Assembly: GCA_951406725.2 (NCBI GenBank)
Contig: OX597815.1
Coordinates: 40,920,001-40,984,000, forward strand
Origin: Octopus vulgaris
Lineage: Eukaryota
Direction of reading: 5' to 3'
Length of the DNA stretch: 64,000 nt
Position numbers: made by a program. The stretch's first letter is position 1; each line of letters begins with the position of its first letter. Shown here in pieces: positions 19,201 through 64,000 of this stretch.

Positions 19201-22200
19201 ATAGACAGAACAGCCAGAACTGTAGGTGTTTCCATATATGATAGTTTAGGTTTATGGAAAGCTGTGATGTGATGGTAAGAAAAAAAAGAATCAGTAACTT
19301 TTTCAAATTCAGTGAAGTTGATTACATATAATCGCCTGAAAATAATTGAACATCTTTGTCACTGTTGGCCCTGAGTATCTTGCACAATATCAATTATGAG
19401 AGCTTCAACGGCACATGCAGAAAGTTACTCATGCATTCTATAATTTTGTGAATGGCTAACTTATACATTCAATTGCTTTTAATTTCTTGTAATGTGCTGA
19501 TGATTGTTTCACAATTTTGTGATATTGCAGCATTTCCTGCTCTCAGTGTCAACTGGTAGTTGACATTTGCACAGCTGAGGGAAAATATTTTGCAAACTGG
19601 GCTGCTGATGCATCTCTATTAAATGTAACTTCCATATTGGTAGAAAGATATAGGAACATTTCCTCTCCTAACCCTAACCTTTATTATAAAAGATATTTTG
19701 ATAAGATCTTGTTAATGCTTCAATGATGCTGTCTAGTAATTATTAAAGCTTCTAGTTTGGTAGAAAGATACAGGGACATTTGCCTCTCCTCTCATTGACT
19801 TATAGATTTTTTGACAAGATCTTGTTAACTCATCAATGATACTGTATAGTAATTATTAGAGCTGCTAGTTTTTTAAAGTTTTTTATTGTCCAAATTCTTT
19901 CATTATCAAAAATCATCTACATTTCAAAGTTTTAGTTGTATTATTTTATGAGTTGTCAGCAGAGTTTAAGACTCATTTATTCCAATAAGTCCTTATTTTG
20001 ACATGAATAGATTTTCTGAAGTTGTTAAAAATAACATTTTTTTGAATGTAAGAACTGTATGAAAATGATAGTGAACAATGTACTTTTCCTTATAAATAGC
20101 AAACAATTTATCTTACCTGAAGCTAGGGCATCTGATATAGTTGTGTTATCTTCCATATTCCTAAATCCACCCATTGTGTCAGATTCAAAAGACTCTGTTT
20201 GAACTTGTAAAGTAGCATCCATCACCTTTAAGAGAAGAATGCAATGTCAACAAATTTATACGCTATTATCATCATCATCATCATAATTTTTGTGTCTTGC
20301 CTACTATTTTCGGAGTGTAATCTACTATTAATGTTAGATTTAAATGATAGGTTAATTGATTTTAATATATTTATGGGGTGATTTGATAATTTATTCACAT
20401 ATCTTGTAATTTCACCATCTTTCCTATATGGGTAATATAATTTCGAGTTTAAATTTAAAAATTAGTATCTAAAAAATTAACTACCTTCGTGTTATATTCA
20501 TAAGTAATACTTAACTTAAAGTTTTTGAAAAATTTTCTAATTCTCTTTCTCATTCTCTCTATGATTAATTTATTGTTGCTAGTGATGATGAATAAGGCAC
20601 TTAAATTGTCTATCTATTTTACCCTATCCGTAAAGGATAGATTCTAGTTTCTAATAGATTTGATAAACTAGTCTATAAATTAAAACTAAACCCACCCCCT
20701 AGTAAATCTGAATAACAAATATAATCAATGATAAGCAGTATCTTCTTTTGAAAAAATCTCAGTTACAACTGTGATATTGTTGATAAAACATGTTCTTTGT
20801 CTATCTACTTATCTTCTTCATGATTTTGGTTAAAAAGAAAATTATACAAATGAATCCTTCGAATTTAACTAAATTCTATATTTTTATGCAGCTGAAGATT
20901 GCTCTACATTTTAAATTGATGTAATGTTTGCATTGTTCAATTAAATGGAGTCACATGAAACGATCGTACTGCATTACCTCTGGATATCCTTGTTGCTTAT
21001 TTTGATTATAATCACCCCATTTTGAATTATATGGATAATAACCATACTAAACTCTGGTGCCTTTAACTTAAGTACTGTATTCATCTGAATCTAAATTTTA
21101 CTGAACTTGTTTGTTTGTTTGTTTGTTTGTTTGTTTGTTTGTATGTATGTATGTATGTATGTATGTATGTATGTATGTATGTATGTATGTATGTATGTAT
21201 GTATGTATGTATGTATGCATGCATGCATGCATGCATGTATGTATGTATGCATGCATGCATGCATGTATGCATGCATGCATGCATGCATGCATACATTTTA
21301 TGTTTCATATCTTCTGAGTTAGTAGGCCAAATAACATGTGAGTTAGCTCATCCTATCAATGGAGTGGTTGCATTTAGAGACAATCTTATTAATATTTCAG
21401 ACATTTAGAAAACTGGTGACCAATAGTATTTTTTTTTCTTCAGATTGCTTGTTCTCTAAATTCTGGTGTAACTTATGAATTGTTACTTTAACTCGTGAAA
21501 TACATGTGAGAATTAACACGCGTGGCAATACATTTCAAACAGTAAGATTAGTCTAGCAACTAATAAAGGATTTTTACTTTTTCTTTTCTGGTGTAACTTG
21601 ATTCTTTCTGTACAAAAGTACATCTTGGAAACCACCGAATATGTTCTTCCCATGGATTGTCATCCTCCTCCCAATTACATAAGCCACCATCACAGCTAAA
21701 ACAAATTACTGTATCAGCTTTTCCTGCAGACCAATAGAAAATGAAAGAGAATAATTATAACACAAGTCTGAAAGATTAAATTAGGAATTGAAAAATTCAG
21801 TATGATTATGCAAGAATTCAGAATGTAAAGAGACCTAACTACAGCCTAGTTCTCTGCTGATTCTGCCATTAACTAAAGATCAAATGTAGTATGTACTTAG
21901 CATTTTTAACAACAGAACAGTTATTGCAATTTTGTGTAAAGGACTGATGAACAAATTTAAACTTCTTAATTATTTTCTTTAAGACAATAAAACCAAAAGG
22001 AAAGTAATGGTCAACTAACAAGCTTTGTACAGATTACTAACATAGTGTTTCTCTTATTTCTCACAGAATACATCAATCTGTATCATTGACACTTTCTTTC
22101 TTTTAAATTCTTTTCAAAGCAAACTGTGTTTCTTTCTTGTTTGATGAATAAATATGGCACCAGAAAATAGAAATTCTAACAATCAAAAACACAATATTAA

Positions 22201-61700: not shown

Positions 61701-64000
61701 ATTGAATTCTTGCATATAAGCAACTGAATGAATTTTCTGCTAAAAGGCAAATGCTAAATTTTTCAATGAAATATTAAGAAGAAAACTCATTTTGGTAGAT
61801 TAGAATAAACTATGTGATATGGGGTCTGAAGAAGCTACAATCTCCAAAAGGTGATGAAAGTGCATCTGGCAAAATAGCTTGGGAAAAATTTATATTATTT
61901 AAGGATTTTGGGAAACCTAAGAGAAGAAGCAGATAAAGAGAGAATTTAACCAAAGTTATCAGATTGGGTTCTTATAAATTTATACTTCAAAGATAACATG
62001 ATGAAAGGCAAAAATGAATTAAAACACTGCGATTTGCTTCCTTGTGTATGATGTACTGAACAAACATATATCAATACAACAATGATTACAATGATAAATT
62101 TTGTATAAAAACTGGATAGTTAATTTTGTATAACAAAAAATTATTATATTTAAAAAAATCGTAAAGTATTCTTACCTGTTTCTTTGATTTTGTTTTTCAC
62201 AATTCTTTTGACTAGATTTCGATTATAGCCCATAGATAAAAGAGCCTTAACTGTAGGTGTTTCCATACATGATGCCTTAGATTTACGATTTTTCAACTTG
62301 GGAGAGCCTAAAATATAAAAGGAAATTATTAAAATGTTTCTAAAAATGTTCTAAATTTTATTTTTCAATTTAAAGTAATCTTTGACTATTTCCTAGTGTA
62401 ATTTTTATCTTTTTGTTTCTGTTCATGCAGCATCATCATTTTCCAAAAAGGGTACACTGGTGCAGTATCTGATTGTTTTCTCAAGGCAGATATGAGGCCT
62501 AGTGTGTAAAAGGCTTAGAAATGGGAACTGCATAGATTTGGTTTTTTTTTCCTTGGCTTCAAAACCTAAGTGACTCAACAAAATATATACAAACTTTAAA
62601 TTAGCCAATGATAAATTTTGATCACTAATTTTGACACTGAAATATTATCTATATGTTTGCTTTACAAATGATATGTTTTGTCTGATTTAAAGTTCTATAT
62701 TTGCCACATATATAATGAAACATATCTTCATTATTTTTATTGAATTTGCTCATCATGCTCTATTCTTGAAAAATGTTAACAGATAAACATGTATACTAGA
62801 AAAAAAGAAATGAGTCAATCATGGAAAACGTAATTACTTAATATGCATACTGTAATTATGAAATGATATAATCTTACATGATATTCTTTGTGAAAAACTG
62901 TGATGTGATGGTAAAAAAAAATCAATATCTTTTTGCAAATTTAATGAACTTCATTACATATAAATCACCAGAAAATAATTAAACATCTTGCATAATATCA
63001 TTTTTGGCAACTTTGTTGGCACATGCAGAAAGTTTCCTCATGCTTTCTATAATTTTGTGAATGGCTAACTTATACATTCAATTGCTTTTAATTTCTTGTA
63101 ATGTGCTGATGATTTTTTCACAATTTTGTGATATTGCAGCATTTCCTGCTCTCAGTGTCAACTGATAGTTGACATTTGCACAGCTGAGGGAAAATATTTT
63201 GCAAACTGGGCCGCGGATGCATCTCTATTAAATGTAACTTCCATATTGGTAGAAAGATATAGGGACGTTTCCTCTCTTAACCCTAACCCTTATTATAAAA
63301 GATATTTTGATAAGATCTTGTTAATGCTTCAATGATGCTGTCTAGTGATTATTAGAGCTTCTAGTTTAATTTAATTTTTTTATTGTCCAAATTCTTTCAT
63401 TATAAAAAATCATCTGTTTTGTTAAAAATAACATTTTCTTAAATGTAAGAATGTATGAAAATGATTGTATGAACAACATACTTTCCCTTATAAATAGCAA
63501 ATAACTTACTTGAAGTTAGGTTATCTGATGTCCTGTTATCTTCCATATCGTAATATCTACCAATTGCATCAATTTCAGGAGAATCGAAATCTGATCGAAC
63601 TTGTGAAGATTCCTTTAAGAGAAGAATGTAATTTCAACAAATTTATATTCTAGTAATGCTGAGTGTACACAGAAGCATACACTTCTACATATAATTAAGT
63701 GTGGATTAACAAACATTAAGTATATTGTAGCTTGTATTTAACTATATGTTCATGCAGAAGATATCCTTGGACAAACTGCCAAACATTATTATTTTAAATT
63801 GTCTTACCAAAGAATAATTTTCACAAAAAAACTATATCTTTTCAAAGTCATTCTAAATTCAGGTATGTAAGAATTAGATAATACTTTTCTGATGGGCACT
63901 AATACCACCAAAACATGCATAGAGTTGTCACTATAATTACCAAAAAAACTCAGAGAAGACAGTTTTTGTATGTGGAAGGAAGATGCATAGGATCCATAAA

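What the first reader, a model, noticed from the sequence alone, without database searches (positions are those of the whole stretch)
20117..63612. Linker exons of the two IAP paralogues diverge far faster than their introns, almost only by replacement changes
Seen: exon 3 (20225-20117 vs 63612-63510) shares about 15 of 33 aligned residues. I count roughly 18-20 non-synonymous and 1-2 synonymous differences plus three in-frame indels. The adjacent intron (19411-19654 vs 63019-63264) differs at about 7 of 244 nt. The 3' half of exon 5 behaves the same way, while the RING is about 93% identical with several silent changes. Both frames stay open. Inference: diversifying selection focused on the BIR-UBA and UBA-RING linkers, which could be protease-cleavage or antagonist-contact regions.
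Basis: partly seen in the sequence, partly recalled or inferred. Interest (0 to 1): 0.82.

Follow-up and report, generated by a model that had tools for sequence, protein, structure and literature searches.

The report
Octopus IAP paralogues' hyperdivergent linker exons
Two neighbouring octopus anti-cell-death (IAP) genes differ much more in the short stretches that encode floppy linkers than in their introns. The likeliest reason is that the introns of two old gene copies were kept alike by copying between them while the unconstrained linkers drifted; adaptive change is possible but not shown.

Summary
The window is Octopus vulgaris. Copy A (16411-23748, minus strand) is the NCBI-modelled 558-aa 4xBIR-UBA-RING IAP. 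Copy B (58559 to beyond 64000) is cut by the window end and matches an O. sinensis IAP.

The raw observation holds. Exon 3 shares 15 of 32 aligned residues, with three indels. The last 42 nt of exon 5 differ at 16 sites. Introns 3-5 differ at 233 of 2805 aligned sites (8.3%).

The changes are not "almost only replacement". The linkers give pS 0.23, pN 0.30 and omega 1.4-1.9, not significantly above 1.

BIR trees put A and B in different clades, and each clade also holds O. bimaculoides genes. The paralogues therefore predate that speciation. Yet their introns are less diverged (0.088) than the published between-species dS (0.123), and the divergence is patchy. The linkers are predicted to be disordered and are about as diverged as the inter-BIR linkers.

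Best reading: these are old paralogues whose 3' introns and domains were homogenised by gene conversion, leaving unconstrained linkers as peaks of divergence. Positive selection remains possible, chiefly for exon 3 (at least 2.2x neutral between species), but it is unproven.

The parts
22770..23748 (-). Copy A exon 1: start codon, three BIR domains and the first half of BIR4, plus the disordered inter-BIR linkers
   Evidence: ORF and GT donor. Pfam BIR matches 4 stretches, E 2e-53. 100% identical to P0001, an NCBI O. vulgaris IAP.
21578..21723 (-). Copy A exon 2: second half of BIR4 and the start of linker 1. It uses a donor 10 codons upstream of the position where B-type proteins end this exon.
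   Evidence: Sequence, Pfam BIR profile positions 34-70, P0001 junction and protein alignment.
20117..20225 (-). Copy A exon 3: BIR-UBA linker, 36 codons plus 1 nt
   Evidence: No Pfam match. pLDDT below 50 over residues 371-418.
19145..19261 (-). Copy A exon 4: 8 linker codons, then UBA helices 1-2
   Evidence: Pfam UBA_BIRC2-3 profile positions 4-31 of 53.
18040..18168 (-). Copy A exon 5: end of the UBA (18121-18168) and the UBA-RING linker (18040-18120). The last 42 nt (18040-18081) are the strongest outlier.
   Evidence: pLDDT below 50 over residues 472-495.
16411..16607 (-). Copy A exon 6: RING and stop codon
   Evidence: Pfam zf-C3HC4_3, E 2.1e-15.
63510..63612 (-). Copy B exon 3: BIR-UBA linker, 34 codons plus 1 nt
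   Evidence: 32 of 34 residues identical to O. sinensis P0025.
62176..62307 (-). Copy B exon 4: 13 linker codons, then the UBA. Its acceptor lies inside a 605-nt segment that A lacks.
   Evidence: Pfam UBA_BIRC2-3. The junction agrees with P0025.
61032..61181 (-). Copy B exon 5: end of the UBA and the UBA-RING linker (61032-61133)
   Evidence: The linker is 34 of 34 identical to P0025.
58559..58752 (-). Copy B exon 6: RING and stop codon
   Evidence: 63 of 63 identical to P0025.
16406..20268 (-). Copy A side of the A/B homology block, running from 43 nt upstream of exon 3 to just past the stop codon
   Evidence: Self-BLAST, global alignment, flank searches.
58554..63655 (-). Copy B side of the A/B homology block. 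The BIR exons of B lie beyond the window end.
62286..62890 (-). 605-nt segment present only in B. It ends intron 3 and carries B's exon 4 acceptor and first codons.
19411..19654 (-). It is the best-conserved part of intron 3.
   Evidence: 6 mismatches in 244 aligned columns. No Pfam or Rfam match.
16649..16858 (-). End of intron 5 with no mismatch to B in the aligned columns, including the longest perfect run of 145 columns

Best explanation
A and B are two old, same-strand IAP paralogues of Octopus vulgaris (four BIR domains, a UBA and a RING), about 42 kb apart in DNA rich in LINE fragments.

The segments that differ most encode predicted-disordered linkers. They differ at silent as well as replacement sites and carry in-frame indels. 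Between the A and B types they are about as different as the disordered linkers between the BIR domains. They therefore appear to keep the old, near-neutral divergence of the two gene lineages.

The unusual part is the rest of the 3' block: introns 3-5, and probably the UBA and RING exons. It is too similar and too patchy for genes of that age. The best account is interlocus gene conversion, or a later recombination between array members, which homogenised the block and left the indel-rich linker segments as peaks of divergence.

Shown:
- the gene models;
- the divergence map;
- omega near 1-2 in the linkers;
- the old split of the BIR exons;
- the patchiness of intron divergence;
- the predicted disorder of the linkers.

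Inferred:
- that conversion, rather than slow intron evolution, made the introns alike;
- why the linkers escaped it. Either heterology and indels blocked heteroduplex formation, or selection acted against erasing paralogue-specific linkers.
For: 1. Old split. In the BIR-exon tree, {O. sinensis P0025, O. bimaculoides P0026, P0008} form one clade (100/99). A sits with OvC, P0003 and the OvD/P0004 pair in another clade (99/99). The AU test rejects A joined to the B type (p 0.0023). A vs P0025 in exon 1 is 214 of 320 identical; cross-species pairs are 263 of 325, 278 of 322 and 257 of 303.
2. Introns too similar. 233 of 2805 mismatches give JC 0.088. This is below the published O. bimaculoides-O. 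sinensis mean autosomal dS of 0.123 (passage; binomial p 7e-8).
3. Patchiness. The variance of 50-column bins is exceeded by 0 of 5000 shuffles. The longest perfect run of 145 columns is reached by 1 of 5000 shuffles. 4 of 52 intron bins have 10 or more mismatches against 0.38 expected.
4. Linker silent sites are raised too. pS is 0.23 vs 0.083 in introns (p 0.002). Exon 4 5' plus linker 2 give dS 0.39, dN 0.39 and omega 1.0.
5. No special focus. A vs the B type is 21 of 48 and 11 of 22 identical in the inter-BIR linkers, and 17 of 47 and 11 of 24 in linkers 1 and 2. dN_min is 0.30 for the exon 1 disordered parts.
6. Ancestry. A's exon 3 is closer to paralogue OvC (22 of 36) than to B (13 of 31).
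7. Exchange within the family. OvC is A-like in exon 1 (301 of 326) but B-like in exon 2 (45 of 50, with the last 23 residues identical to P0025).
8. Block limits. A/B homology stops 43 nt upstream of exon 3 and at the stop codon.
9. Disorder. pLDDT is below 50 over residues 371-418 and 472-495.
10. The same pattern is described for red/green opsin genes (passages of PMC3924837).
Against: - No cephalopod DNA other than this window could be read. The defining test, paralogous introns within a species being closer than orthologous introns between species, was not run.
- 0.123 is a genome mean of synonymous sites, not a local intron value. Its spread sits in a supplement I could not open.
- At the protein level A is no closer to O. 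vulgaris B than to O. bimaculoides P0026 in the UBA (40 of 46 for each) or the RING (56 of 63 for each). There is thus no direct sign of post-speciation conversion in the exons.
- The UBA+RING tree does not significantly contradict the BIR tree. A with the B type has support of only 70/80, and A with D is not rejected (p 0.19).
- The divergence peaks end sharply at splice sites. There are 16 mismatches in the last 42 exon nt, then 0 in the first 31 intron nt. Neutral conversion tracts give no reason for this.
- Linker dN (0.39) is still above linker dS (0.27) and above the age inferred from exon 1 (about 0.25, my estimate).
- The homology-block ends may simply reflect transposon insertions.
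Confidence: 0.5

Rival explanations
1. After duplication, or after the last homogenisation, diversifying positive selection drove replacement changes in the BIR-UBA and UBA-RING linkers. These might be protease-cleavage or antagonist-contact segments. The introns record the true neutral divergence.
For: - Linker dN of 0.39 against intron divergence of 0.088 (p 2e-14), and against the pooled synonymous sites of all four exons (48 of 160 vs 19 of 110, Fisher p 0.02).
- Point estimates of omega are 1.4-2.5.
- In an independent comparison, O. vulgaris B exon 3 vs O. bimaculoides P0026 needs at least 18 replacement changes in 79.7 sites. That is dN_min 0.27, or 2.2x dS 0.123 (Poisson p 0.006). Against P0008 the ratio is 2.6x.
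- O. sinensis P0025 vs P0026 differ at 20 of 47 residues in linker 1 but at 13 of 70 in the inter-BIR linkers (p 0.006).
- The peak edges coincide with exon borders.
- In the last 14 codons of linker 2, A carries residues found in none of the other aligned octopus proteins with this segment, at positions where those proteins agree.
Against: - Omega within the linkers is not significantly above 1: p 0.45 by Fisher, 0.058-0.26 one-sided. ML on single pieces is unstable, giving 9.9 and 0.19.
- Linker synonymous divergence is raised too (p 0.002 vs introns). The internal islands give omega 1.0.
- Differences by codon position are 23/21/14.
- In the B lineage, linker 2 and the exon 4 5' end evolve at about the neutral rate between species (0.96x and 0.86x), not faster.
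- Exon 3 on the common nucleotide alignment is only just above the intron maximum (20 vs 19 per 96 columns).
- A's exon 3 shares ancestry with paralogue OvC, so part of the A/B difference is inherited.
- P0026 may not be a strict orthologue for exon 3.
Confidence: 0.25
2. Loss of constraint in copy A plus mutational and alignment effects. The linkers are disordered, low-complexity and tolerant of indels. Indel-associated mutation, (GAT)n slippage and uncertain codon alignment inflate their apparent divergence. No selection or conversion is needed.
For: - In introns, mismatch density rises with gap events (Spearman 0.49, p 2e-4). The means are 2.85 per 50 columns without gaps and 5.6-5.7 with gaps.
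- Exon 3 has 6 gap events in the nucleotide alignment, and linker 2 has 3. A (GAT)n run sits in exon 5.
- A is the outlier copy. It has a shifted exon 2 donor, a shorter exon 4 5' end, deletions in linker 2, and 4-5 of the 7 RING differences are A-derived by my reading of the alignment.
- The codon-based alignment counts more exon 3 differences than the nucleotide alignment (26 vs 20).
Against: - Relaxed constraint cannot exceed the neutral rate, yet linker divergence is about 4x the intron value.
- The strongest peak, the last 42 nt of exon 5, has no gap and is anchored by identical flanks. It still has 16 mismatches, against a maximum of 10 in gap-free intron bins of 50 columns.
- Both copies keep open frames and splice sites. 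UBA+RING give omega 0.44 (p 0.04), so A is not a decaying pseudogene.
Confidence: 0.15
3. Artefact: the 'linker exons' are not real exons, or they are mis-delimited, so intron-like sequence is being compared as coding sequence.
For: Exon 3 and the linker half of exon 5 have no Pfam match. No transcript data could be consulted.
Against: - The NCBI model P0001 reproduces every copy A junction.
- O. sinensis P0025 reproduces the copy B junctions, except at the exon 5/6 junction, where P0025 has one more Ala than my B model (see the noticed item on the RING-exon acceptor).
- Homologous segments occur in O. bimaculoides and Argonauta proteins.
- Frames are open and borders are canonical in both copies.
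- A 15-nt core of exon 3 is identical between the copies.
Confidence: 0.03

Closest known systems
Primate red/green (L/M) opsin genes: concerted evolution with a peak of divergence (passages of the review PMC3924837 read, which cites Teshima and Innan 2008)
   Same: - The paralogues are tandem and tens of kb apart.
- Coding sequences group by orthology across species, while the introns of the two paralogues are very similar.
- Divergence rises inside an exon and stays low in the flanking introns.
   Different: - Here the peaks lie in predicted-disordered linkers with indels and omega near 1-2, not at known function-tuning residues.
- Intron trees across species could not be built.
- No function is known for the diverged residues.
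'Accelerated evolution' of exons relative to introns in snake-venom PLA2 isozyme genes and similar toxin families
   Same: Exon segments are more diverged than introns, with replacement and silent rates both high and their ratio near or above 1.
   Different: - Those cases concern secreted toxins, with the whole mature-peptide exons involved and dN/dS above 1 across many genes.
- Here only the linker segments of an intracellular E3 ligase are involved, and dN/dS above 1 is not shown.
Tandemly expanded IAP genes of bivalves (PMC7831173 and PMC8917759, passages read)
   Same: A molluscan BIR/RING gene family arranged in tandem arrays, with structural divergence between duplicates.
   Different: - Whole-gene Ka/Ks of six tandem hard-clam IAPs was 0.08-0.45, that is, purifying selection.
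- Neither paper's text contains 'gene conversion'; 'linker' was queried only in PMC8917759 and is absent there.
- Octopus has among the fewest IAPs of the molluscs compared, about 10 in O. sinensis.
cIAP/XIAP-type IAPs (BIRC2/3, XIAP, DIAP2): BIR-UBA-RING E3 ligases
   Same: BIR domains, a BIRC2/3-type UBA and a C-terminal C3HC4 RING, in that order.
   Different: - Four BIR-like stretches instead of three.
- No CARD match.
- Orthology to any vertebrate or insect IAP was not tested.

Membership tests
IAP family (BIR-containing proteins) | At least one BIR (baculoviral IAP repeat) zinc-binding domain | tested here: met
   Pfam PF00653 matches 4 stretches in copy A exon 1 (E 2e-53) plus the second half of BIR4 in exon 2 (E 4e-14). 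The BIR exons of copy B lie outside the window.
cIAP/XIAP-type E3 ligases (BIR-UBA-RING) | BIRC2/3-like UBA domain between the BIRs and the RING | tested here: met
   PF21290 UBA_BIRC2-3 gives 28.1 bits for exon 4 of A and 34.9 bits for exon 4 of B, against a cut-off of 27.2. These residues fold as confident helices at 424-465.
cIAP/XIAP-type E3 ligases (BIR-UBA-RING) | C-terminal C3HC4 RING | tested here: met
   PF13920 zf-C3HC4_3, E 2.1e-15 for A and 5e-16 for B.
cIAP1/2 subtype | CARD domain between the UBA and the RING | tested here: not met
   The exon 5 peptides of A and B have no Pfam match at E 0.1. The segment is 27-34 residues long and has pLDDT below 50.
Region under positive diversifying selection | dN/dS significantly above 1 in a codon-aligned comparison | tested here: inconclusive
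   Omega is 1.4-1.9 for the 67 linker codons (p 0.45; one-sided 0.058-0.26) and 2.0-2.5 for exon 3 (p 0.10-0.41). Only two DNA sequences were available.
Region under positive diversifying selection | Replacement divergence above an independent neutral standard | tested here: inconclusive
   The feature is met against introns (p 2e-14) and pooled exon synonymous sites (p 0.02). For exon 3 it is also met against the published species dS (2.2x, p 0.006). But linker dS is raised too, and the standards may have a different history.
Concerted evolution by interlocus gene conversion with peaks of divergence (opsin-like) | The paralogues split before a speciation, as judged by coding sequence | tested here: met
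   BIR-exon tree and AU test, p 0.0023. This is not resolved for UBA+RING (support 70/80; p 0.19).
Concerted evolution by interlocus gene conversion with peaks of divergence (opsin-like) | Introns of the paralogues within a species are more similar than orthologous introns between species | not testable with these tools
   No cephalopod DNA collection was available. The only proxy is A/B intron divergence of 0.088, below the genome-mean dS of 0.123.
Concerted evolution by interlocus gene conversion with peaks of divergence (opsin-like) | Mosaic of low- and high-divergence tracts along the alignment | tested here: met
   0 of 5000 shuffles reach the observed variance. A perfect run of 145 columns is reached by 1 of 5000 shuffles. 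4 of 52 intron bins have 10 or more mismatches.
Concerted evolution by interlocus gene conversion with peaks of divergence (opsin-like) | The peaks are maintained by selection on functionally divergent residues | not tested
   There are no functional or population data.

The most novel reading that the evidence does not exclude
The BIR-UBA linker encoded by exon 3 may be a recurrent target of diversifying selection in octopus IAPs. It could act, for example, as a bait or cleavage segment for caspases or pathogen proteases. In this reading its sequence turns over faster than neutral, both between paralogues and between species, and selection keeps it distinct in each paralogue against ongoing gene conversion. 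That would make the linkers, not the folded domains, the specificity-determining parts of the family.
Probability: 0.2. Interest if true: 0.55.

Novelty: new member of a known kind. Interest (0 to 1): 0.3.

Why it matters
If the main reading is right, this locus is an invertebrate example of a known trap. In tandem gene families that exchange sequence, introns can be younger than exons, so "exon more diverged than intron" is not in itself evidence of adaptive evolution.

The work also gives a clean gene model for two octopus IAPs. Their disordered linkers, splice sites included, are being remodelled while the BIR, UBA and RING folds are kept.

If the minority reading is right, IAP linkers would join the short list of intracellular immune and cell-death regulators with arms-race signatures. 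Exon 3 would then be a concrete segment to test for cleavage or antagonist binding.

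Tried and rejected
- Searching for an O. vulgaris protein of copy B, or for A-like linkers elsewhere. The RING-exon search returned O. sinensis and O. bimaculoides proteins but no 100% O. vulgaris hit. The exon 5 search returned only P0001, from 5 candidates.
It stayed unchecked.
- ML and YN00 dN/dS on single exon pieces: unstable or failing. Not used.
- A templated donor for the diverged segments elsewhere in the window: only self hits, (GAT)n and exact matches of 15 nt or less.
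- A compensated frameshift in linker 2: rejected, because the 42 nt align without gaps and have 16 point differences.
- A conserved RNA or protein element in the well-conserved intron stretch: no Rfam family, tRNA or Pfam match.
- Literature for a neutral octopus rate: PMC8382921, bioRxiv 714394, PMC9795677 and PMC6408891 gave no usable number. One recalled id was not held.
- A search for IAP linker positive selection found nothing relevant among the 15 papers listed of 35.
- Not tried: the joined spliced protein models of A and B were not built or searched; searches went exon by exon.

Full report
**What is there**

The window has no N. Exon 1 of the complete gene is 100% identical to P0001, named by NCBI [quoted passage not shown], so the window is Octopus vulgaris.

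Both genes lie on the minus strand.
- Copy A has six exons: 23748-22770, 21723-21578, 20225-20117, 19261-19145, 18168-18040 and 16607-16411. The 558-aa P0001 reproduces every junction.
- Copy B shows exons 3-6: 63612-63510, 62307-62176, 61181-61032 and 58752-58559. Its BIR exons lie beyond the window end.
- No O. vulgaris protein for B was returned. O. sinensis P0025 (593 aa) matches B at 32 of 34, 13 of 13, 34 of 34 and 63 of 63 residues in exon 3, the exon 4 5' end, linker 2 and the RING. It confirms B's junctions except exon 5/6, where P0025 has one more Ala.

Pfam finds:
- four BIR stretches in exon 1, and the rest of BIR4 in exon 2;
- a BIRC2/3-type UBA in exon 4;
- a C3HC4 RING in exon 6;
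- nothing in exon 3 or exon 5.

Only these two IAP copies are in the window. LINE-type endonuclease and reverse-transcriptase ORFs lie between and beside them. Searches were made exon by exon. The joined spliced models of A and B were not built or searched.

**Checking the observation**

- Exon 3 has 15 of 32 aligned codons with the same residue and three in-frame gaps.
- It has 2 clean silent changes and 17 replaced codons (24 nt).
- The named intron stretch has 6 mismatches in 244 aligned columns.
- The linker half of exon 5 has 11 of 27 identical residues and three gaps.
- The RING exon is 184 of 197 nt identical, with 5 silent changes.

Two points are overstated.
- The intron stretch is the best-conserved one. 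Introns 3, 4 and 5 differ at 42 of 607, 87 of 960 and 104 of 1238 aligned columns. Together that is 233 of 2805 (8.3%, JC 0.088). 4 of 52 intron-only 50-column bins reach 10-11 mismatches.
- The changes are not almost only replacements once sites are counted. Exon 3 gives Sd 3.5 of 21.7 and Nd 22.5 of 74.3 (omega 2.1, p 0.41). All 67 linker codons give pS 0.230, pN 0.304 and omega 1.42 (p 0.45). With the intron transition bias (146:87), omega is 1.89 with one-sided p 0.058.
- Differences fall 23/21/14 on codon positions 1/2/3.

UBA plus RING (108 codons) give omega 0.44 (p 0.04), so both copies are under purifying selection in the domains.

**How unusual the linkers are**

- Linker replacement sites are far more diverged than the introns (p 2e-14), and so are linker silent sites (p 0.002).
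- On the same nucleotide alignment, exon 3 has 20 of 96 mismatches plus 6 gap events, against an intron maximum of 19 per 96.
- Linker 2 has 20 of 81 mismatches, against a maximum of 17.
- The last 42 nt of exon 5 have 16 mismatches, against a maximum of 11 in 2682 windows.
- The first 31 nt of intron 5 are identical, so that edge is sharp.
- Total linker divergence is 58 of 201 nt (JC 0.36). The domain exons give 0.085 and the introns 0.088.

**Evidence that the two genes are old and the 3' block is mosaic**

- In the BIR-exon tree, P0025 groups with O. bimaculoides P0026 and P0008 (100/99).
- A groups with the O. vulgaris paralogue P0002 (100/100). Together with P0003 and the P0005/P0004 pair it forms another clade (99/99).
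- The AU test rejects A joined to the B type (p 0.0023).
- The split therefore predates the O. vulgaris-O. bimaculoides divergence. That divergence is given as about 34 My in passages of PMC10700109 and 13-34 My in PMC10925132.
[quoted passage not shown] The A/B introns are below that (binomial p 7e-8).
- Intron divergence is patchy. 0 of 5000 shuffles reach the observed variance, and a perfect run of 145 columns is reached by 1 of 5000 shuffles.
- A/B homology stops 43 nt upstream of exon 3 and at the stop codon. The remaining 345 nt of B match nothing in 2.5 kb of A, and 2 kb downstream shows no collinear match. Transposon insertions could also cause these limits.
- P0002 is A-like in exon 1 (301 of 326) but B-like in exon 2 (45 of 50, last 23 residues identical to P0025). 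Array members therefore exchange sequence, unless that gene model is chimeric.
- A's exon 3 is nearer to P0002 (22 of 36) than to B (13 of 31).

**The linkers as disordered, near-neutral segments**

AlphaFold2 on P0001 with 16 homologues gave mean pLDDT 62. It gives pLDDT below 50 for residues 371-418 (exon 2 tail, exon 3, exon 4 5' end) and 472-495 (linker 2), and also for the inter-BIR linkers 66-117 and 193-216.

Between A and P0025:
- The inter-BIR linkers are 21 of 48 and 11 of 22 identical.
- Linkers 1 and 2 are 17 of 47 and 11 of 24 identical.
- The pooled difference is not significant (p 0.10).

I counted the minimal replacement changes needed to turn window codons into the residues of database proteins.
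- A vs O. bimaculoides P0003 gives dN_min 0.063 in the ordered parts of exon 1 and 0.150 in the disordered parts. These are 0.5x and 1.2x of 0.123.
- A vs P0025 gives 0.131 and 0.297.
- From these ratios I estimate an A/B age of roughly 0.25 in dS units for exon 1. This is an inference.
- That estimate is near the linker dS (0.27) and three times the intron value.

**What still favours selection**

- O. vulgaris B vs P0026 gives dN_min 0.27 in exon 3 (2.2x of 0.123, Poisson p 0.006).
- The same comparison gives 0.96x in linker 2, 0.86x in the exon 4 5' end, 0.24x in the UBA and 0.11x in the RING.
- P0025 vs P0026 differ more in linker 1 (20 of 47) than in the inter-BIR linkers (13 of 70; p 0.006).
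- Linker dN exceeds the pooled exon synonymous divergence (p 0.02).
- In the last 14 codons of linker 2, A carries unique residues where the other aligned octopus proteins with this segment agree.

So exon 3 may evolve faster than neutral, and A's linker 2 shows a lineage-specific burst. Neither is established with two DNA sequences.

**Verdict**

The pattern is real, but the contrast with introns is best read as homogenised introns between old paralogues, with disordered linkers left as peaks of divergence. Published work describes the same pattern for opsin genes (passages of PMC3924837; abstract start of PMC3728101).

Published IAP work on molluscs reports purifying selection on tandem duplicates and few IAPs in Octopus (passages). 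A search for positive selection on IAP linkers found nothing relevant among the 15 papers listed of 35.

**Left unchecked**

- Orthologous introns: no cephalopod DNA collection was available.
- The dS distribution: supplements are closed.
- Transcript support for the splice variants.

Noticed in passing
window 21560-21600 (minus strand): Copy A ends exon 2 at an AAA|GTAAAA donor. B-type and P0002 proteins read about 10 codons further at this point. Read-through in A would hit TAG after 5 codons. A's linker 1 is thus shortened by a donor shift.
   Followed up: partly
window 62286-62890 and 19254-19262: A 605-nt segment present only in B carries B's exon 4 acceptor and first codons. In A, the polypyrimidine/CACAG acceptor that lies upstream of this segment in B abuts the exon directly. 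Whether this is a deletion in A or an insertion in B is unresolved.
   Followed up: partly
window 16600-16612 and 58750-58760: The RING-exon acceptor is a tandem ACAG|CAG in A, but TTG followed by CAG in B. O. vulgaris B should therefore lose one Ala relative to O. sinensis P0025.
   Followed up: no
protein P0002 (O. vulgaris, outside the window): A third paralogue looks mosaic. Its exon 1 is 92% identical to A, its exon 2 tail is identical to the B type, its exon 3 is A-like and its linker 2 is B-like. Its UBA is degenerate (28 of 46 identical to A) and it has no RING. It may be a decaying gene or a chimeric gene model.
   Followed up: partly
window 20144-20158 and 63534-63548: A 15-nt core of exon 3 is identical in A and B. 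It encodes the M-E-D-N motif, which is kept as [MVI]-E-D-[NV] in all aligned octopus proteins with an exon 3 except P0002 (M-K-D-N). Upstream of it, an Asp followed by a small residue is kept (x-E/Q-x-D then A, T or S). That could be a caspase-type site; the specificity is recalled, not tested.
   Followed up: no
window 19637-19871: A tandem duplication of about 120 nt lies inside A's intron 3 (19637-19758 vs 19757-19871, 81% identical). It is absent from B.
   Followed up: no
window 4223-4933, 7060-9175, 12294-12866, 24551-25003, 35264-37501: LINE-type ORFs flank and separate the two IAP genes. Pfam gives an endonuclease-reverse-transcriptase domain at 35264-36217, RVT_1 at 36218-37501, and RVT_1 plus zf-RVT at 7063-8562.
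   Followed up: partly
window 58015-58448, 3177-3432, 41254-41357: A short interspersed repeat sits just downstream of B's stop codon, with copies elsewhere in the window. Another repeat lies downstream of A's stop (16273-16389, similar to 25484-25595). These insertions may explain why A/B homology ends at the stop codon.
   Followed up: no
window 9176-9357 and 21108-21296: There are long microsatellite or minisatellite arrays. One has a 6-nt period that reads as a poly-Cys ORF. The other is an ACAT/GCAT-type array in A's intron 2.
   Followed up: no
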